Virus record (IMG/VR): IMGVR_UViG_3300044514_000023
Location: 1 to 42,738 of that record
DNA: 42,738 nucleotides
Strand: one strand, 5' to 3'
Source of the DNA: a virus
Lineage: Duplodnaviria; Caudoviricetes
In this document: positions 1 through 42,738 of the stretch, one piece after another
Position numbering within the stretch: the first letter of the stretch is position 1
Layout of the letters: each line of letters starts with the position of its first letter
Translations under genes and position numbers: made by a program
Notes under the pieces: generated by a model
What the model was told of the DNA's origin: nothing
The model's database searches: none
Seen by the model: the letters and a program-made list of their open reading frames with translations, nothing else

Positions 1-143
1 TTCGCTTCCGAGGAGGTGGAGGTTCATACTTCGACCGAGATTCGGACCGCCAGATTCAGTTTAGGCTGCAGACTCGACATGGTGTAGGTGGGGTTGACTT
101 CGACCTCAACGATCAACCCAGCTTCTTGTCCCTTGGCGATGGC
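1..143. repeat. Terminal direct repeat, left copy (circular-assembly overlap)
   Basis: 1-143 matches 42596-42738 except T127 vs A42722; genes read through the junction. Confidence 0.97.
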
Positions 144-3334: not shown

Positions 3335-3863
3335 ACGTTTCCTCCTTGGTTGCGATCAGCCAGTGCCGCGCCCGCCACTGATAGAGACGGAGCGCGGCCA
3401 GGAAGGTCTCTCGGTCGGCGCGGTCCCTTCGTGGGATCAGCCGATAGCCAGTGTCCGTCAGCACGACGTTGTAGCGAGCGATTCCATACCGCTCATCCTT
3501 CATCGCTAGCACATACGCGGCGAGTTGAATCCCGTGCCAGGGCTCGTCCGATGGCTTGATGTCCAGGATTGTCCACTGGCGATTCAGCCAGCCGCCACGA
3601 TCCGGATGTCCGACATAGCCGAGCTGGCTTTCCACCTCCCACTCGATTTTCTCGGCCACCCAGTCAGTCTCCGCTCGAAACCGCCTCCACTGCTCCAGCT
3701 TCGCCGAGATCACTGGGTCCACCGTCGCCTCGTCGAGCGTCCCCTCATCGTAGTACCGGCACGCGAGATGCAGCGCGGACCCGCGATCCAGGTAGTAGTC
3801 ACCGGCTTGATGGCCCATCAGCCCGGCCTCGCGGATGATCTCGGTGACGGACGGGAGGCTCAC
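3321..3863 (-). CDS. PD-(D/E)xK exonuclease (Cas4/RecB-like)
   Basis: PSVTEII, RGSALH, GHPDR, ILDIK, QLAAY motifs. Confidence 0.85.
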   Translation of the reverse strand: MSLPSVTEIIREAGLMGHQAGDYYLDRGSALHLACRYYDEGTLDEATVDPVISAKLEQWRRFRAETDWVAEKIEWEVESQLGYVGHPDRGGWLNRQWTILDIKPSDEPWHGIQLAAYVLAMKDERYGIARYNVVLTDTGYRLIPRRDRADRETFLAALRLYQWRARHWLIATKEETYERA

Positions 3864-4182: not shown

Positions 4183-4242
4183 CGTTTCCTCCTCTTGGGT
4201 TTGGCCGTGTTCAGGACGCGAGCCACGCTTTCACGATCGGCA

Positions 4243-4796: not shown

Positions 4797-4945
4797 CGCG
4801 TACTTTTGAAGCGCTGGCACGCGCACCGAAAGCCGCTCGACGCGATTGCTTGGCAGCCATCTGCCATATGATCCTCTCTGTCGTGCCCGCACTCGCACTC
4901 GTCCCAAGGGTCGGGCGGGTCGAGCTGGCGGGTGGGCTCACTCAT
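4793..4945 (-). CDS. Small Cys/His Zn-binding protein (50 aa, below ORF-track cutoff)
   Basis: MSEPTRQLDPPDPWDECECGHDREDH...C...CACQRF; RBS; ATGA coupling. Confidence 0.6.
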   Translation of the reverse strand: MSEPTRQLDPPDPWDECECGHDREDHMADGCQAIASSGFRCACQRFKSTR

Positions 4946-4948
4946 GGC

Positions 4949-5188
4949 TCACGCTCCTTCCCTGGGGAAAGTGATCTCCTCCAGCACCTTCTCGGCCCTT
5001 TCTACCAAGCATCCGCCGTTGTGATCGCGACCCCATACGCCGGTGAGGTGTCGGCACCACAAGCACATGGCGTCTCCCTCTTTCGAGCGGACCCTGCTTG
5101 CTGACACGAAGCCGCGTAGCACGTCGCAGGCGTCCATGCACCAATAGGCCGGAGCCTCTTCTCCGGTGTTGCGATCAATCGCTCTCAT
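4949..5188 (-). CDS. Small Zn-binding protein in a repeat-flanked cassette
   Basis: C..AC and CLWC...H...C motifs; direct repeats at 4941-4962 and 5184-5205. Confidence 0.6.
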   Translation of the reverse strand: MRAIDRNTGEEAPAYWCMDACDVLRGFVSASRVRSKEGDAMCLWCRHLTGVWGRDHNGGCLVERAEKVLEEITFPREGA

Positions 5189-5549
5189 GGCTCACGCTCC
5201 ATCCCGCCTTCTCCCAGGCGGCATAGTCGGGCAGGTCGCAGTCGGACTCGGGGTAGCGGGCGAGGCGGACGGTCCTGGGGGTCATCTGTCCGAGCGCCAT
5301 CAACCCACCGACAATCGCGGCCGAGATGGTGTCGGCCGGCCAGGCGCGTTCCTGGGCCAGCATGTGGACCGGGAACGCGCCCGACCCCCGCACGGTGAAC
5401 CGCTGCGGCTTGCGGCGTTCCTTCCGTGAGCGGCGGCCCAGGTCCCAAATGTTGGGCGAGCAGCGCGGGCAGACGCACGAGGCGGGCTCCTCTTGCGCTT
5501 CCTCGATCATCCGGTCCGTCACTCCAGGCGTTAGGTTGCTGAGTTTCAT
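5175..5549 (-). CDS. Hypothetical protein
   Basis: Start MKLSNLTPGVT with GAGG RBS; FTVRGSGAFPVHML...WPA. Confidence 0.65.
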   Translation of the reverse strand: MKLSNLTPGVTDRMIEEAQEEPASCVCPRCSPNIWDLGRRSRKERRKPQRFTVRGSGAFPVHMLAQERAWPADTISAAIVGGLMALGQMTPRTVRLARYPESDCDLPDYAAWEKAGWSVSHESD

Positions 5550-5734
5550 GCTTTCCTCTTCGGCGGATCGTCGATCACCACCTCGCCGTTGACGTGCCGG
5601 ACCATCCAGTACGGCCCTCGTGGGCTCTGCAGCCGCCGCCCGCGGAGCCGGCCGGCCTGGACCATCTTCATGAGCCACTGGCGCGATTTGCCGCTGCGCC
5701 GGGCGGCTTCTCGTATCGGGATCTCGTCTTTCAT
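5546..5734 (-). CDS. Excisionase/MerR-like HTH DNA-binding protein, first gene of early arm
   Basis: IREAARRSGKSRQWLMKMVQAGRLRG winged-HTH pattern. Confidence 0.8.
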   Translation of the reverse strand: MKDEIPIREAARRSGKSRQWLMKMVQAGRLRGRRLQSPRGPYWMVRHVNGEVVIDDPPKRKA

Positions 5735-5740
5735 GCGGCG

Positions 5741-5769
5741 AATCTATTGCAGTTGCGCCACGGTGTCAA
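5741..5769 (-). promoter_or_regulatory. Sigma70-type leftward promoter, probably leaderless transcript
   Basis: TTGACA-17 nt-TAGATT, 6 nt before ATG at 5734, no SD. Confidence 0.75.
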
Positions 5770-5785
5770 GTGGAAAGATTCCCCA

Positions 5786-5814
5786 TTGCCCGCGTCGCCT
5801 TTTCGTGGTACTCT
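5786..5814 (+). promoter_or_regulatory. Rightward promoter upstream of candidate sRNA
   Basis: TTGCCC-17 nt-TACTCT with extended TG. Confidence 0.55.
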
Positions 5815-5820
5815 CCGCTC

Positions 5821-5920
5821 AACCGGGGCCGTCGAGCATGCGGCCCCACGTTTCCTCCTTCTTGGCCTCGGGGCCGGCGACCCCTGCCCGTAGCCGAGCT
5901 GGCCCCGAGGCGCAGTTTCC
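5821..5920 (+). ncRNA. Candidate antisense (anti-SD) small RNA
   Basis: Hairpin 5825-5847, unpaired ACGUUUCCUCCUUCUU, 14-bp stem 5865-5878/5898-5911. Confidence 0.5.
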
Positions 5921-5922
5921 CG

Positions 5923-5952
5923 TTGACTCCCAGGCGGCGGTCGTGGTAGACA
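5923..5952 (+). promoter_or_regulatory. Possible promoter for replication genes
   Basis: TTGACT-18 nt-TAGACA with extended TG. Confidence 0.4.
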
Positions 5953-6050
5953 AGGGGCGCGTGGACGGCACGCAAGAAGCCCCTGCCTCGTGGCCGGCTC
6001 CGTCACCGAGAAAGCGGGGCCGGTCACAAGGCTCTTTCTCGGAGGGGAGG

Positions 6051-6839
6051 ATGCATGGATTCCTGAGAGTCGCCCACCTAGAGCGCTACCAGCACTACCG
6101 ACAACGTCGCCCGCCCTGGATCAAGTGGCACCGCTGCTGCCTGGACGATCCAGAGTTCTGCCGCTTGCAGGATGCTAGCAAGTGGCTGGCGATTGGCCTC
6201 GTTCTCCTGGCCTCGGAGACAGGCAACCGTATTCCGGCCGATGCGGAGTGGATACGGAAGCGGCTGATGATGCACGAGCCGCCAAACCTGAAGGCGTTAG
6301 TGGAGGTGGGCTTCATTGAGGATGCTAGCAACGCGCTAGCAACATGCGTGCAGTCTGCTAGCGAAGTGCTTGCCTCAGAGATCAGAGATCAGAGTTCAGA
6401 GGCTTCTGAGGGTATTCCGGCTCCGGAGGAGCTTCCGGCTGGGAAGCTAAAGCAAACAAGCCGGACTCGCGTTCGGAAACGCGACTCCGGGAATGGCGCG
6501 ATGAGCCCGGAGTTCCTGGCGCTCTGGGAGCTGAGCCCGCGGCGAAACGGCCGCCGGGTAGGGCGGGCCGAAGCGTGGCGGGAGTGGCAGGCGCAGGCGT
6601 GCCAGCCCATCGCCGCCCAGATCCTGGGAGCGATGCGCGCGGAGATCGCCAGCCGGAAGCTGGCGGAGGATCAGGAGGAATGGGTCGCCCCGCCGGTCGA
6701 CCTGCATCGCTGGATCCGCCGGCGGCGCTTCGAGGACCCGGCTGGACCTGGCTCGTGCATCCACTGCGGGTGGGAGACCGAGCCGGGAGCCGACTACTGC
6801 CCGACCTGCCGGGCAAACGGAAAGGGGGCGACCGGATGA
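6051..6839 (+). CDS. Phage replication initiator (replisome-organiser-like)
   Basis: GGAGG RBS before MHGFL; YQHY...PPWIKWH...LDD N-terminus; FLALWELSPRR...AWREW C-domain; internal repeats; precedes DnaB. Confidence 0.75.
   Translation: MHGFLRVAHLERYQHYRQRRPPWIKWHRCCLDDPEFCRLQDASKWLAIGLVLLASETGNRIPADAEWIRKRLMMHEPPNLKALVEVGFIEDASNALATCVQSASEVLASEIRDQSSEASEGIPAPEELPAGKLKQTSRTRVRKRDSGNGAMSPEFLALWELSPRRNGRRVGRAEAWREWQAQACQPIAAQILGAMRAEIASRKLAEDQEEWVAPPVDLHRWIRRRRFEDPAGPGSCIHCGWETEPGADYCPTCRANGKGATG
6323..6402. repeat. Putative replication origin (iterons inside initiator gene)
   Basis: GCTAGC-core repeats at 6323, 6335, 6356 (variant 6367), then TCAGAG(A/T/G) x4 at 6375-6402. Confidence 0.65.
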
Positions 6840-8122
6840 ACGCCGTGATGGAGCGATCCACCGAAGACCTTGAGCGCGCGCTGCTCTGCGCTCTGCTCTG
6901 CGGGGGCGGCCGGCTGGAGGACGCTCAGCCGCTCCGGGAGGATGACTTCCGCGGCTTTCACGCCCGCGCCTGGAGGGCCGTGCTCGAGCTGGCGGAACAG
7001 CGGATCCCCTACGACGATGCCGTGCTGGTAGCCCACCAGATGGGGCAGCCGGAGGACAGCCGCAGGCTCGCCGGGATCTTCGACGATTACGTCCACGGCC
7101 GGCATGCCAGGTGGTACGCGGCGAAGCTCCGAGAGCGACGGCACGCGGAGCACGTCGCGGAGGCGGACACGGCGCACCGGGAGGGCCTGAGGTTCGGCGG
7201 CCAGCCGGAGGCGCTGGAGGCGGTTCGGACTAGGCGTCTGCGCGAGCTCGAGGACCGGTACGGCATGGCCCCAACAGATCCGACCGGGCTCCGCGCGCTG
7301 ACCGGATTCTACGCGACGGCCGACGAGCACCGGATCGGCGCCGGATACGCGGAACTGGACGCCGCGGTCGGAGCGCTCCACCCGGGGATGGTCGTGACGG
7401 TGCTGGCCCGGCCCGGCACCGGAAAGAGCTGGCTCGCTCTCAACCTCGCCGCCCGATGGCTCAGCCTCGGCCCTCCGTGGTCCGTCTGCTTCGCCTCGCT
7501 GGAGATGCCGGCCTCGCTGGCTACCGACCGGCTTATGCGGATCCTGGAGGGCTGGACTTCCTCGCAGGTGCGGGATGCGGTGCTACGGCCTGGCGCGCCT
7601 CAGCCCGACCGATACGAAGAGCTGACGCGCGGGCGGTACGTGTTGCACGCCGGCACGCCCAGGCTGGACGCGATTGAGCGAACGATCCGAGAGCACCACG
7701 GCCATCCGGTCCGGGTGGTGCTGATCGACTATCTCCAGTACCTCCAGGGCGAGCGGGGGGAGTCGCCGTATGAGCGGGCCTCGAGGCTGGCCAAGGAGAT
7801 CAAACAGAGGGCCAAGACGTGGGAGGCGCTGGTGGTCCTGCTCTGTCAGCCGCGGCGGATCAAGGGCTCGCCTCATCGCTGCCCGTCGCTGGAGGACGCG
7901 CGCGACTCCGGGGTGATCGAGGAGTCGGCGGACGTGATGCTCGGCCTGTGGCGGCCGGCCGCGGATTCCCTCGAGATCCGCCTCCGGGTCCTCAAGGCCC
8001 GGGAGGCCATGGCCGGCCGTGAGATCGTGCTGGTACACGATGGGCAGACCGGGAGGATCGCCAGCGCCGCGCAGCCGCTCCCAGTACCGGACGCGGCACC
8101 GGACGCCGACCTGCCGTTCTAG
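6836..8122 (+). CDS. dnaB: Replicative DNA helicase, DnaB-like
   Basis: ARPGTGKS Walker A, SLEM, LIDYLQ, RDSGVIEESAD, LKAR. Confidence 0.93.
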   Translation: MNAVMERSTEDLERALLCALLCGGGRLEDAQPLREDDFRGFHARAWRAVLELAEQRIPYDDAVLVAHQMGQPEDSRRLAGIFDDYVHGRHARWYAAKLRERRHAEHVAEADTAHREGLRFGGQPEALEAVRTRRLRELEDRYGMAPTDPTGLRALTGFYATADEHRIGAGYAELDAAVGALHPGMVVTVLARPGTGKSWLALNLAARWLSLGPPWSVCFASLEMPASLATDRLMRILEGWTSSQVRDAVLRPGAPQPDRYEELTRGRYVLHAGTPRLDAIERTIREHHGHPVRVVLIDYLQYLQGERGESPYERASRLAKEIKQRAKTWEALVVLLCQPRRIKGSPHRCPSLEDARDSGVIEESADVMLGLWRPAADSLEIRLRVLKAREAMAGREIVLVHDGQTGRIASAAQPLPVPDAAPDADLPF

Positions 8123-8188
8123 GCTGCCCCATGACCCCCTGCCGAGGCAGACGAAGGCCCCCAGGATCGGCCTGGGGGCCGTGGTGGC

Positions 8189-8446: not shown

Positions 8447-8652
8447 GACTTGCCCAGGTACAGGACGAACGGGGCGCCACGGCTGAGGTTGACGCGATGT
8501 TCGCCCATCATGATTCGGCGGACCGCCTCCCACACTTCCGAGTCGTCGCGGTTCGCTTCGAGAAACGCCTCGAAGGACGTGCGCTCCTCGGACTGATCGA
8601 TCCAGACCGTAGCGCTTGGGGTCTTCGTGTTTTTGCTGACTTCGATCTTCAT
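8443..8652 (-). CDS. Hypothetical protein
   Basis: GGGAGG RBS, operon context. Confidence 0.65.
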   Translation of the reverse strand: MKIEVSKNTKTPSATVWIDQSEERTSFEAFLEANRDDSEVWEAVRRIMMGEHRVNLSRGAPFVLYLGKS

Positions 8653-8714
8653 GCTTTCCTCCCGCGGGTCTGGCCCGCTCCGGGCGAGGCGCAGCGCGCC
8701 ACGTCCAGGCCGGG

Positions 8715-9377
8715 TCAGCCGGACCGCGGCATCACAATCCCGTCCACCTCGCCGGCCGGGCCTTTGAGGTGCAGCGTGTAGGGGCCGACGCTGGGTCCTA
8801 GGCTGGACTTCGGGTGCTCCTTGGCTATCGGGGCGCCGAACCGGACGGGCTTCGTCTCGCCGTTCCGGTAGCCGGCGGCCGCGCCCATCGTTTTGAGCAC
8901 GCGGCCCAGGATCTCGCCGTCCAGCGTGAACGCCGCATGCTTGCCGGGCTCGGCCGGCACGACGTTCCGCCAGCTCGGGAATCGGCCGTCCGGTATCGGA
9001 GCGCTCTTGACAGTCGGGCTTTCGAGGTCGGTGACCGCGCCCCAGACCTTCCCGCCCGAGACGAAGATCATGACGTTTTCGAGGATCGGCATGGCCGTTT
9101 TCTTGGGCGTGGCCTTCGCCAGCTCCGAGAGAAACCCGACCGGCACGAGGATGCTCTGCACGTCCTCCGCTTCCGGCAGGCCCGGAATGAGCGGGAAGTC
9201 CTCTGCCGGCCGGATCGGATAGCGGGCCACGACCAGCGCGTGGCCATCGGTCGCGACGGCGAGTAGCTTCTCGCCCTCGATTTCCAGGCTGATCGCCTGG
9301 AGGCTGTACCTTGGGTCATCCTTCGACGCCGCGGCTTCCACCGCGGCCGCCTGCTTCGGTACGATCCACTGTCGCAT
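8715..9377 (-). CDS. DNA polymerase III beta-clamp-like protein (partial DnaN fold)
   Basis: Start MRQWIV with GAGGAGG; R..LQAI, VATDGHAL, GRFPSWRNVVP resemble DnaN; also PILENV...TDLE. Confidence 0.7.
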   Translation of the reverse strand: MRQWIVPKQAAAVEAAASKDDPRYSLQAISLEIEGEKLLAVATDGHALVVARYPIRPAEDFPLIPGLPEAEDVQSILVPVGFLSELAKATPKKTAMPILENVMIFVSGGKVWGAVTDLESPTVKSAPIPDGRFPSWRNVVPAEPGKHAAFTLDGEILGRVLKTMGAAAGYRNGETKPVRFGAPIAKEHPKSSLGPSVGPYTLHLKGPAGEVDGIVMPRSG

Positions 9378-9441
9378 CGTTTCCTCCTCGCGGTGCCTTC
9401 TGGCCCGCTCTCCTGCGCCCCGTGAGGCGCAGAAGGCCTGG

Positions 9442-9687
9442 TCAGTGGCGGCGCGTCCCGCCCTCGCGATCCCATGGCAGGTCGTAGTCCTGCGGGTCGC
9501 CGCTGCGGATGTACGTCGCGTACTGCGCCCGCCGCTCGCGGACATACTGGACGGCCGTCCGGTAGTCCATGACGGCGCTCTCATCCCAGTAGTCCAGGCG
9601 CGGGCTGCTGCCCGTCCACACGACCCACCGCCCGCCCTGCGGCCGCCTGTGTGCTATCTCGAAGGCTCGCTGTCTCTGGGTGCTCAT
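9442..9687 (-). CDS. Hypothetical protein, first gene of accessory operon
   Basis: AGGAGG RBS directly after a good promoter. Confidence 0.65.
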   Translation of the reverse strand: MSTQRQRAFEIAHRRPQGGRWVVWTGSSPRLDYWDESAVMDYRTAVQYVRERRAQYATYIRSGDPQDYDLPWDREGGTRRH

Positions 9688-9704
9688 GTCGTTTCCTCCT
9701 ATGC

Positions 9705-9738
9705 CCTACAATGTACAGCCTGTAGGCCATAGATGCAA
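9705..9738 (-). promoter_or_regulatory. Leftward sigma70 promoter with overlapping palindromic operator
   Basis: TTGCAT-17 nt-TACATT; inverted repeat CCTACA-N10-TGTAGG at 9705-9726. Confidence 0.7.
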
Positions 9739-40961: not shown

Positions 40962-41183
40962 ATCGCGCCACCACCGGAAACGCTGCTCGGGACCGCCCCG
41001 TGGGAGTCGGCGGAGCTACTGGTCTCGCCGGCCGTGCTGGAGCCTGCCACCCCGCGGGTCGCCTGGGCGCCCAGGAGGCTGAGACACTGGCGGGTGGGGT
41101 GGTTTGCCGGGCCGGCCGTGGTCTACGCGGCGGACGGCAGGGTCACCGGAGGCGTCGTCGTGGGCCTAGGGATCCAGTTCTAG
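40962..41183 (+). pseudogene. Orphaned second copy of the last 73 codons of 39757..40407
   Basis: IAPPPETLLG...GLGIQF* aligns ungapped with 40186-40407 (39/73 identical by manual count); no start codon. Confidence 0.88.
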
Positions 41184-41467
41184 GCAGTACTACCATCGGG
41201 CTTGAGCGACCATAGGTTGTCAAGGACTTTCTCACAGTAAATGGTCTACTAGTACCAGTATGGCTTGAACTGTCAGATACAGATGGTATCATGGAGGCCA
41301 TGGAAGACACACCGACACCCAGAGTTTGGACGGGTCCCTGGGCATGCGTGAGCGCTTTAGCATACCCACAAAGCTACATGGCTTCTTGGCCGATGGCAAG
41401 GGGAAATCGCAAACCCTATAAATCCATCTTGACTCCATAGGTGTCTCCGGGGTAGGAAAGGGGCCGG

Positions 41468-41671
41468 ATGTCTGACTATCTGTTTGCGAGACCTTCGTTT
41501 TTGGCGGGAATGGCCAGAGTCGCTGATCTCGGTGGCGCGCTCGATTCGTACAACGATAGCCCGACCGAGGCATACGCCGACGCCAACGCCCTTTTCATGG
41601 ATTTTTGGGCCGTTGGCAAAGACCTTTATGATGCCTATGTAAGGGCTGCCGAAGAGGCGATCAAGAAGTAG
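41468..41671 (+). CDS. Small conserved-looking hypothetical protein on a lower-GC insert
   Basis: LFARPSFLAGMARVADLGG...YN...AD..A...D..AVG.D; oriented against the early arm. Confidence 0.7.
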   Translation: MSDYLFARPSFLAGMARVADLGGALDSYNDSPTEAYADANALFMDFWAVGKDLYDAYVRAAEEAIKK

Positions 41672-41801: not shown

Positions 41802-41990
41802 CTATCCCACTGCCCACAGCGCCAGCGCGCAGACCGCCGCGGCTGTCCCCGCGCCGAGCCACCAGCCAACCATCAGGGACCGAGGGTCGTACCGTCGCTC
41901 CCGGTTGATCGCGCGCAGGAACCTGTCGCCGCGGTTGTAGCACGGCCCTTCGTGCGGGCCGCCGCGTGAGCTGAGGAGGTGGAGGTTCAT
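41802..41990 (-). CDS. Small protein with C-terminal TM helix
   Basis: LMVGWWLGAGTAAAVCALALWAV; shares MNLHLL start with the ligase. Confidence 0.6.
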   Translation of the reverse strand: MNLHLLSSRGGPHEGPCYNRGDRFLRAINRERRYDPRSLMVGWWLGAGTAAAVCALALWAVG

Positions 41991-42622
41991 CAGAAATCTT
42001 TCGTCTTGATCTTCACGATCAACCTAGCGCCTTTCTTGTCAAATAGCGTTTCGGCCGGACGCCCAACCAGACCTTCCGCCATGGCCGCTCCGTTGTTCAA
42101 CAGCGACGGAAATCCGGCCTGCACCATCACCGTCGCTTCTTCGAGTGTCATCTCGCCAACGAACGGGACCACGTCAAGGCCGATCTTGGCAGCCACGTCG
42201 CATGTGTTCTCCCAGCTCAACCACCACTTGCCGTCCACTAGTACGTCGAAGACGATGAGCTTCTTTGTGAGGGAATAGTTTCCGCCCTTCTGGATTCCAG
42301 CGCCGTAGCCTTCCCCGTAAATAACGACGTTGCCTTCTGGAAAGACGTTGGACATTGTCGAGGTCGGCACGTTTTCGTACAGCCACCTCACGAGGTCTGC
42401 GTGGATCTGGGCGTTGTCAGTTTTTCCACCGAATCTGAGGATGCCGTTCTCCCAAATGCAACGGATGTTCGTTCCGTCGATTTTCTCGGTCCAGATCCAC
42501 GACTTGACGAGAGAGTACGTGCGATTCTTGAGTCGCGATGGGTCCACCTTGTGAGTTATCTCATCTCGGACGTACAGTGTTTCGATCTTGTGATATTCGC
42601 TTCCGAGGAGGTGGAGGTTCAT
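41990..42622 (-). CDS. RNA ligase (Rnl2-like nucleotidyltransferase domain)
   Basis: YHKI, TEKIDGTN (motif I), YGEGYG, FDV, EGLV, KIK. Confidence 0.9.
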   Translation of the reverse strand: MNLHLLGSEYHKIETLYVRDEITHKVDPSRLKNRTYSLVKSWIWTEKIDGTNIRCIWENGILRFGGKTDNAQIHADLVRWLYENVPTSTMSNVFPEGNVVIYGEGYGAGIQKGGNYSLTKKLIVFDVLVDGKWWLSWENTCDVAAKIGLDVVPFVGEMTLEEATVMVQAGFPSLLNNGAAMAEGLVGRPAETLFDKKGARLIVKIKTKDF

Positions 42623-42738
42623 ACTTCGACCGAGATTCGGACCGCCAGATTCAGTTTAGGCTGCAGACTCGACATGGTGTAGGTGGGGTTGACTTCGACC
42701 TCAACGATCAACCCAGCTTCTAGTCCCTTGGCGATGGC
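42596..42738. repeat. Terminal direct repeat, right copy
   Basis: Matches 1-143 with one mismatch. Confidence 0.97.

What the first reader, a model, noticed from the sequence alone, without database searches (positions are those of the whole stretch)
5786..5920. Candidate multi-target anti-Shine-Dalgarno sRNA in place of a repressor
Seen: a rightward promoter precedes hairpin / unpaired ACGUUUCCUCCUUCUU (5848-5863) / long hairpin. The linker is antisense to the RBS next to the start of leftward genes: 13/13 at 3335-3347 (annealing protein), and 11/11 at 4183-4193, 9378-9388 and 9690-9700, with shorter matches near 8655 and 5552. Its 3' GAGGCGCAG (5907-5915) recurs in the leaders at 8686 and 9424. 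It sits in the divergent control region, and no CI-like gene is recognisable. Inference: an RNA-based switch loosely analogous to the P1 C4 and P4 CI antisense RNAs.
Basis: partly seen in the sequence, partly recalled or inferred. Interest (0 to 1): 0.72.

Follow-up and report, generated by a model that had tools for sequence, protein, structure and literature searches.

The report
Phage RNA mirroring early-gene ribosome sites
An uncultured sediment phage has, behind a promoter-like site, a short stretch predicted to fold into two hairpins around an exact mirror of the ribosome-binding sequence shared by four of its early genes, so it likely makes a small RNA that would turn those genes down together, though no transcript and no relative has been seen.

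Summary
An 11-base motif (AGGAGGAAACG) occurs 5 times, against 0.05 expected. Four copies are ribosome-binding sites of leftward early genes. The fifth lies in the divergent control gap, 35 bases behind a rightward promoter-like site. Read rightward, it is a predicted open linker between two hairpins. The 27-codon ORF alternative is weak: short spacing, non-coding codon score and no leftward promoter found. The 3' GAGGCGCAG match is real, but it sits in a stem and is not predicted to pair in trans. It suggests the RNA gene arose from a copy of a target leader. Best reading (0.55): a ~98-nt antisense RNA that blocks initiation at several early genes. It works like P1 c4 but is not a c4 or P4 CI member. 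'In place of a repressor' is not supported: no integrase or CI was found, so a lysogeny switch may not be needed, and a 62-residue HTH gene sits at the same switch. No homolog was found in 277 loci, no RNA run was listed, and covariation could not be tested. This scan noted eight analogous phage RNAs on other DNA before (unchecked notes).

The parts
5786..5814 (+). Rightward promoter-like site TTGCCC-17-TACTCT with TG extension; predicted start about 5821
   Evidence: Relaxed scan; missed by the strict scan; shares TCGTGGTA with the next site at 5941
5821..5918 (+). Candidate small RNA, about 98 nt; ends inferred, 3' U-tract only UUU
   Evidence: Fold z -2.8, 0 of 200 shuffles as good; no Rfam family
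5825..5847 (+). Hairpin 1, 8 bp with one U.G pair
5848..5863 (+). Open linker, antisense to the extended ribosome-binding motif (predicted seed)
   Evidence: Opening energy 0.9 kcal/mol; matches
5865..5911 (+). Hairpin 2, 14-bp stem with one G.U pair; its 3' arm and tail (5899-5915) carry the two blocks shared with two leaders
3335..3347 (-). Predicted target: RBS of the 340-aa gene next to the exonuclease (13/13)
   Evidence: linker duplex -21.3 kcal/mol
4183..4193 (-). Predicted target: RBS of the 45-aa gene that heads an overlapping block ending in the exonuclease (11/11)
   Evidence: duplex -20.5, gene overlaps of -4
9378..9445 (-). Leader cassette and predicted target (11/11) of the beta-clamp-like gene 8715-9377
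   Evidence: duplex -20.4
9690..9700 (-). Predicted target: RBS of the first gene of the second leftward operon (11/11)
   Evidence: duplex -19.0
8653..8718 (-). Leader cassette homologous to 9378-9445; weaker predicted target (8 nt)
   Evidence: duplex -13.8
5552..5558 (-). Weak match (7 nt) at the RBS of the gene after the HTH gene
   Evidence: duplex -11.2, no better than late genes
5741..5769 (-). Leftward promoter-like site TTGACA-17-TAGATT; predicted +1 falls on the ATG at 5734
5546..5734 (-). 62-aa HTH_17/excisionase-like gene, predicted leaderless; candidate protein regulator
   Evidence: Pfam HTH_17 E 0.006, below cut-off; Atlas feature score 0.94 to HTH_17 clusters; no sequence relative
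5766..5849 (-). 27-codon ORF overlapping the RNA; probably not a gene
   Evidence: Spacing 4 against 5-7 nt, codon score -8.1 bits; flat GC by codon position
5923..5952 (+). Second rightward promoter-like site TTGACT-18-TAGACA, ahead of the replication gene
6051..6839 (+). Replication initiator gene, followed by a DnaB-like helicase gene (6836-8122)
   Evidence: PHROG 26426 and PHROG 19
9710..9738 (-). Promoter-like site TTGCAT-17-TACATT of the second leftward operon
   Evidence: Read by eye; below the threshold
8156..8180 (.). 10-bp hairpin between converging dnaB and the second leftward operon; likely limits leftward read-through towards the RNA locus
   Evidence: terminator role inferred

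Best explanation
The stretch 5821-5918 is likely a small RNA gene whose predicted open linker would pair with the extended ribosome-binding motif that four leftward early genes share, and so would likely block their translation together. Shown: the motif, its restriction to leftward genes, and the exact complement. Predicted: the promoter, the fold, the open linker and the pairing energies. Inferred: the RNA is made from the rightward site at 5786 alongside the replication genes. It builds up and shuts down the two leftward early operons at their main entry points, with overlap-coupled genes downstream falling silent too. It would act as a timer in a phage with no recognisable integrase, not as a lysogeny repressor. 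The A-rich spacer bases (AAACG) lie 3' of the Shine-Dalgarno core and would give selectivity over late and host genes. The collinear three-block likeness to the leaders at 8653-8718 and 9378-9445 suggests that the RNA gene arose from a copy of such a leader that came to be read from the other strand.
For: Motif 5 times against 0.05. The extended motif is at 6 of 20 hand-picked leftward starts and 0 of 34 rightward starts, p 0.0015. The four best linker duplexes among 51 starts are the four motif genes, -19.0 to -21.3 kcal/mol; the next is -16.3 and the best rightward one -15.6. Whole-RNA cofolding gains are -14 to -20 kcal/mol at those four; 398 random 96-nt windows gave a mean of -5.1 and a first percentile of -15.1. 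The linker opens at 0.9 kcal/mol. A promoter-like site points into the RNA, a second one lies directly behind it for the replication gene, and no leftward site was found between 5860 and 8200. Both stems hold a G.U pair on the + strand that would be an A.C mismatch on the - strand. Among 199 loci screened, 22 had a repeated start motif and only this window had an exposed gene-less copy, so such copies are not common by-products; the filter was written with this window in view. Motif genes head overlapping blocks.
Against: No transcript evidence and no homolog, so no covariation: nhmmer over 277 loci gave nothing better than E 9.5. The arrangement is absent from the fetched relatives of the neighbouring replication gene. 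21 other loci carry repeated start motifs with no exposed copy in the DNA held, so such repeats do not need an RNA. The 3' end has only UUU and no terminator was called, so the RNA could be a leader of the replication mRNA. The - strand folds almost as well. The relaxed promoter scan is not above chance genome-wide and misses the likely promoter at 9710-9738. An unrelated phage has 21 identical bases as an apparent ordinary RBS, so the motif is a favoured RBS type. Two of the six motif genes pair no better than late genes. One random window reached -19.1.
Confidence: 0.55

Rival explanations
1. The stretch is a third copy of the leftward leader cassette, either a relic whose gene was lost or the real leader of a 27-residue peptide. 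The antisense match is then only the other strand of an RBS.
For: Three blocks lie in the same order and on the same strand as in the leaders at 8653-8718 and 9378-9445. Repeated start cassettes are common: 22 of 199 loci, and another one lies at 4941 and 5184 in this window. A GTG follows the motif and the - strand folds with z -2.1.
Against: The spacing is 4 nt against 5-7 at the six real starts. The codon score is -8.1 bits; 0 of 356 in-sample gene windows are as low, although two probable small genes also score below zero. GC at codon positions is flat, 0.65/0.62/0.65, against 0.80-0.93 at third positions of six leftward genes. The stop codon is part of the -35 box of the leftward promoter-like site. 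No leftward promoter was found upstream. A relic would not be expected to keep a perfect 11-mer, two clean stems and an opposing promoter-like site.
Confidence: 0.2
2. The stretch is the structured 5' leader of a longer rightward replication mRNA and acts in cis, or it yields a general anti-Shine-Dalgarno decoy that dampens host and phage translation without selecting the early genes.
For: There is no strong terminator at 5918. An ATG at 5838 is in frame with the replication gene (frame 5589-6839 is open). The linker can pair with the replication gene's own RBS (duplex -15.3) and with several late RBSs at -13 to -15.6.
Against: The net gain at the replication RBS is only -7.8 kcal/mol. The in-frame extension scores as non-coding (-12.0 bits) and its ATG sits at the loop end of hairpin 1. 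A second promoter-like site serves the replication gene. The non-SD bases of the linker match leftward genes only.
Confidence: 0.14
3. The shared blocks are binding sites for a protein, for example the 62-aa HTH protein, like the operator-bearing extended start-associated sequences of cluster K mycobacteriophages. The hairpins are incidental inverted repeats.
For: The 9-nt block is kept in sequence while its structural context differs between the two leaders. ESAS elements hold promoters and inverted repeats (PMC11373665, passages).
Against: The inverted-repeat geometry differs among the three copies. No promoter-like site was found in the two leaders. This does not explain the exposed 11-13 nt complement.
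Confidence: 0.08
4. Chance: a pyrimidine run in a non-coding gap.
For: The motif resembles a favoured RBS type.
Against: The 11-mer appears in 22 of 200,000 gap shuffles, and the independent two-block match occurs 3 times against 0.01 expected.
Confidence: 0.03

Closest known systems
c4 antisense RNA of phages P1 and P7 (PMC5320573 passages; PMC12197685 passage)
   Same: A phage-encoded structured RNA acting in trans on the phage's own mRNA and covering a ribosome-binding site.
   Different: c4 is a three-stem RNA of about 77 nt cut by RNase P. It uses two loops (a', b') and targets the antirepressor operon of a temperate phage. Here there are two hairpins with one linker, four to six unrelated genes in two operons on the other strand, no Rfam match and no recognisable lysogeny module.
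CI RNA of satellite phage P4 (PMC4825925 passage)
   Same: RNA-based control placed upstream of replication genes, possibly cut from a longer transcript.
   Different: CI pairs with seqA and seqC on its own transcript and causes premature termination. Here the strong complements are all on oppositely transcribed mRNAs and overlap start sites.
Start-associated sequences (SAS/ESAS) of cluster K mycobacteriophages and Microbacterium cluster EF phages (PMC3203893 section 15 part 1 and passages; PMC7302621 passages; PMC11373665 passages)
   Same: An over-conserved, extended RBS repeated before non-structural genes only, some copies with an upstream cassette. The papers call the function unknown and leave open an RNA or protein partner.
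   Different: The motif is different and there are 4-6 copies against 10-19. The cassette here has no 17-bp inverted repeat or promoter. This phage carries a gene-less copy in a predicted open linker behind an opposing promoter-like site.
C/U-rich anti-Shine-Dalgarno bacterial sRNAs such as S. aureus RNAIII and RsaE (names taken from earlier scan notes and from recall; no paper read)
   Same: An unpaired pyrimidine-rich seed against several RBSs.
   Different: Those are host RNAs with short generic seeds. Here the seed extends into a spacer motif private to the phage's early genes.

Membership tests
P1/P7 c4 antisense RNA | Match to the Rfam C4 family models | tested here: not met
   No Rfam hit at gathering score in the window; for 5500-6200 the only match up to E 10 is an unrelated miRNA model at E 5.3
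P1/P7 c4 antisense RNA | Three stem-loops with the two pairing elements a' and b' in loops | tested here: not met
   Predicted two hairpins; the seed is a linker and the second block is paired
P1/P7 c4 antisense RNA | Target covers a ribosome-binding site | tested here: met
   Complement to SD and spacer of four starts; pairing is predicted only
P1/P7 c4 antisense RNA | Target is an antirepressor operon in a temperate immunity region | tested here: not met
   No antirepressor, CI or integrase family among 116 ORFs by Pfam or 40 by PHROGs
P1/P7 c4 antisense RNA | RNase P processing from a precursor | not testable with these tools
   No RNA data
P4 CI RNA | Complementary sites upstream and downstream on its own transcript | tested here: not met
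   No match of 8 nt or more to rightward sequence near the locus; net -7.8 kcal/mol at the downstream RBS
P4 CI RNA | Acts by premature transcription termination | not testable with these tools
   Needs transcript mapping
Start-associated sequences (SAS), as a class | Repeat at the RBS position, conserved beyond the SD core, one orientation, non-structural genes only | tested here: met
   4 exact and 2 partial copies, all before leftward genes, 0 of 34 rightward starts
Cluster K SAS/ESAS, as a sequence family | 13-bp cluster K consensus and 17-bp inverted repeats holding a promoter | tested here: not met
   Different motif; no promoter-like site in the two leaders
Trans-acting sRNA gene | Discrete transcript with defined ends | not testable with these tools
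   No RNA holder listed
Trans-acting sRNA gene | Structure and seed conserved or covarying in relatives | tested here: inconclusive
   No homolog of the element among 277 loci; the relatives found are distant (at most 60% identity over the best segment of the replication protein)

The most novel reading that the evidence does not exclude
Start-associated sequences are address tags for a phage-made master antisense RNA. A phage stamps one extended RBS on the entry genes of its early operons and then evolves the off-switch by copying a tagged leader and reading it from the other strand. This locus would be such a switch caught soon after birth, still collinear with its targets. The gene-less reverse SAS of cluster K1 mycobacteriophages, found here in the loop of a covarying hairpin, would be an independent case and would make the open SAS question testable in a cultured phage.
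Probability: 0.25. Interest if true: 0.8.

Novelty: new variant of a known kind. Interest (0 to 1): 0.5.

Why it matters
How phages without a repressor or their own sigma factor switch early genes off is poorly understood. Over-conserved start motifs (SAS) were called unexplained in 2011 and again in 2024 (PMC3203893, PMC11373665). One small RNA that reads a private RBS tag would explain both. It would also show a simple route by which such regulators arise, from a duplicated leader. The design is easy to test with reporters. This locus alone is a singleton with no transcript, so it is a supporting case for a pattern this scan has noted on other phages, not the strongest example of it.

Tried and rejected
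Rfam: nothing at gathering score or by E-value. Exact DNA patterns in viral contigs: one unrelated RBS and two blanks. blastn against GenBank phages: only a 72% piece of a replication gene. Relatives by single proteins: none for the replication protein or terminase in viral contigs; 24 distant loci for the 340-aa gene, none with the element; GenBank terminase relatives under 30% in the rows shown. One search screened the 80 viral loci and found no second case. One search examined 141 loci; six others passed a loose structure filter (L033, L048, L059, L093, L094, L122) and were not followed up, and two of them lie before leftward ORFs. One search examined 199 loci of 4 kb or more; shorter ones were left out. 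Sequencing runs: no RNA holder listed, which says nothing about expression; laid contigs showed no variants in the element. Pairing of the 3' blocks in trans was rejected: forced complexes scored -79.0 and -76.5 against -109.8 and -97.8 kcal/mol for the free optimum, although the forced forms lacked target-internal pairs. An N-terminal extension of the replication protein from ATG 5838 was rejected on codon score. The -16.9 score for the HTH start uses upstream DNA that a leaderless mRNA would lack and was set aside. The 9687 target scored -7.7 for the same reason and -14.4 when trimmed. Four starts and one were off register; none carries the motif. Covariation of the cluster K loop with its SAS was looked for and not found. 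Paper searches for a phage RNA against the shared RBS of its own early genes gave 0 papers with all terms and no such title in the listings. The library lacks most subscription papers, and no supplements were opened; Fig. S3 of PMC3203893 may bear on the cluster K side finding.

Full report
Setting. The window is a whole phage contig with a 143-base terminal repeat, 142 of 143 bases identical, so it is probably a complete circular genome. An identical contig lies in a sediment metagenome that may be its source. Short identical contigs lie in runs of other studies; one covers 5745-5895 without a difference. A leftward early operon starts at 5734 (HTH gene, small genes, exonuclease, a 340-aa gene of a PHROG family without function, and an RNA ligase across the join). 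A replication initiator and a DnaB-like helicase run rightward from 6051. A second leftward operon, 9687 to 8189, holds a beta-clamp-like gene. Morphogenesis genes run rightward after that. No integrase, CI-type repressor, antirepressor or ParA family was found among 116 ORFs by Pfam or 40 by PHROGs.

Observation. AGGAGGAAACG occurs five times, all on the - strand, against 0.05 expected. Four copies sit 0-2 bases before the ATG of leftward genes (9687, 9377, 4182, 3334), and variants precede 8652 and 5549. The extended motif is at 6 of 20 hand-picked leftward starts and 0 of 34 rightward starts (p 0.0015). The fifth exact copy lies at 5849-5859 in the 316-base gap between the divergent operons; 22 of 200,000 shuffles of that gap contain it. 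On the + strand, 5821-5918 folds as an 8-bp hairpin, an open linker and a 14-bp hairpin, with z -2.8 and 0 of 200 shuffles as stable. The linker costs 0.9 kcal/mol to open. The - strand folds almost as well (z -2.1), but each stem has a G.U pair on the + strand that would be a mismatch on the other.

Which strand is read. A relaxed scan finds three promoter-like sites in the gap. One is leftward at 5769-5741, with predicted +1 on the ATG of the HTH gene. One is rightward at 5786-5814, just before the fold. One is rightward at 5923-5952, just after it. The scan is not above chance genome-wide (20 against 18.2) and misses a likely promoter at 9710-9738 that I read by eye. Still, 3 of 20 sites in 316 bases is unlikely (expected 0.15), and the two rightward sites share eight bases at the -10 edge. 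No leftward site was found between 5860 and 8200, and a 10-bp hairpin separates dnaB from the second leftward operon. The strict scan finds only the leftward site and no terminator at 5918, so the 3' end is uncertain.

The 27-codon ORF. Its GTG lies 4 bases from the SD core, against 5-7 at the six real starts. Its codon score is -8.1 bits, lower than all 356 in-sample gene windows, although two probable small genes also score below zero. GC content is flat across codon positions, and its stop codon is part of the leftward -35 box. It is probably not a gene, but this is not excluded.

Targets. Among 51 starts, the four best linker duplexes are the four exact-motif genes (-19.0 to -21.3 kcal/mol). 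The next is -16.3 and the best rightward start is -15.6. This partly restates the sequence match, but it shows a margin of about 3 kcal/mol over ordinary strong RBSs. Whole-molecule gains are -14 to -20 kcal/mol; 398 random windows gave a mean of -5.1 and a minimum of -19.1. The partial sites at 8652 and 5549 pair no better than late genes. Motif genes head overlapping blocks: 4182-4048-3863, 3334-2315, 8652-8446 and 5549-5188. Blocking a few entries could therefore silence much of both operons (inference).

The 3' match. The two leaders at 8653-8718 and 9378-9445 are homologous cassettes from stop codon to start codon. The candidate shares two of their blocks besides the RBS, in the same order; the two-block pattern occurs 3 times against 0.01 expected. 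In the RNA these blocks form the 3' arm of the long stem. Complexes forced to use them score 21-31 kcal/mol worse than the free optimum, though the forced forms lacked target-internal pairs. I read them as a trace of origin: the locus descends from a leader cassette. This fits both a relic and an RNA gene born from its target. The intact 11-mer, the clean stems and the opposing promoter-like site favour the second reading.

Relatives. None was found. DNA patterns and blastn gave nothing homologous. nhmmer over 277 fetched loci (240 by the replication protein, 24 by the 340-aa gene, 13 others) gave no hit better than E 9.5. In 199 loci of 4 kb or more, 22 had a repeated start motif and only this window had an exposed gene-less copy. 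The filter was written with this window in view, and the loci are partial genomes. Such copies are therefore not routine by-products, but the system is not tied to this replication gene family, and covariation could not be tested. No RNA run was listed.

The repressor claim. No lysogeny genes were recognised, so nothing shows that a repressor is needed. The first leftward gene is a 62-residue HTH_17-like protein (Pfam E 0.006, below cut-off; Atlas score 0.94) with a predicted leaderless mRNA. From my own knowledge, this arrangement is typical of small phage regulators. It is a candidate protein regulator at the same switch. The RNA is better seen as a delayed off-switch co-expressed with replication genes.

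Known systems. P1/P7 c4 covers an RBS with one loop and gains specificity from a second loop (PMC5320573, passages; PMC12197685, first part and one passage). P4 CI pairs with two sites on its own transcript to terminate it (PMC4825925, passage). The candidate works like c4 but fails its family tests. The repeated motif fits the class of start-associated sequences, whose role is called unknown (PMC3203893, section 15 part 1 and passages; PMC7302621 and PMC11373665, passages; PMC4351075 passages, describe a different repeat). Searches for a phage RNA aimed at a shared early RBS found no paper with all terms and no such title. Eight earlier notes of this scan describe analogous RNAs in other phages. 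I did not check them, and they are not counted as support. No look-alike of this sequence is on record there.

A side test. PMC3203893 mentions one reverse-oriented, gene-less SAS in four K1 phages. In Anaya it lies in the predicted loop of a long hairpin within a non-coding gap. That gap has blastn matches in 193 mycobacteriophage records. In an alignment of 10 chosen genomes, 16 of 67 predicted pairs show a change on both sides. The loop is a perfect 11-base complement of the SAS in 4 of 10, a degenerate C/U run in 3, and missing or replaced in 3. The SAS is unchanged in the two degenerate-loop genomes I checked and in Pixie, which lacks the loop. This is a suggestive parallel without covariation.

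Verdict. The feature is real and non-random. It is most likely a multi-target anti-RBS RNA (0.55), with a relic or small-ORF leader (0.20) and a cis leader or general decoy (0.14) as the main rivals. It is a new variant of a known kind. Interest is 0.5 because it is a singleton without transcript or covariation.

Noticed in passing
L186:34730-35070 (Anaya, JF704106, gap between gp96 and gp97); L188-L195; L187:34730-35108: Conserved structured non-coding region near the right end of cluster K mycobacteriophages, with no Rfam family (4 loci tested). Stems show compensatory changes. One hairpin loop is the exact complement of the SAS in 4 of 10 aligned genomes, degenerate in 3 and absent in 3. 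It is a candidate anti-SAS RNA in cultured phages.
   Followed up: partly
window 4941-4957 and 5184-5200: A second start-associated repeat of 17 bases spans RBS and start codon of two neighbouring leftward genes; it is not matched by the candidate RNA.
   Followed up: no
window 5732-5739 and 5837-5844: Eight bases of hairpin 1 are complementary to the bases around the HTH gene's start codon. They are relevant only if that mRNA is not leaderless, and may be chance.
   Followed up: partly
window 41973-41990 and 42605-42622: An 18-base direct repeat covers the first six codons of the RNA ligase gene and of the frame that starts just after it, as if the ligase gene had been inserted with a duplicated start.
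   Followed up: no
window 9705-9726: An inverted repeat (CCTACA..TGTAGG) overlaps the -10 box of the likely promoter of the second leftward operon; it is a possible operator.
   Followed up: no
window 5985-6032: A long hairpin lies in the leader of the replication gene, just upstream of its RBS.
   Followed up: no
window 8715-9377: A 220-aa gene with one DNA polymerase III beta-clamp central domain (Pfam E 2.5e-8) and three similar-length distant relatives lies in a leftward operon inserted between replication and packaging genes.
   Followed up: partly
window 41180-41671: An A+T-richer island with two small rightward ORFs (41291, 41468), each behind its own promoter-like site; it looks like a moron.
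   Followed up: no
window 1-143 and 42596-42738: Terminal repeat of 143 bases with one difference: circular assembly overlap.
   Followed up: yes
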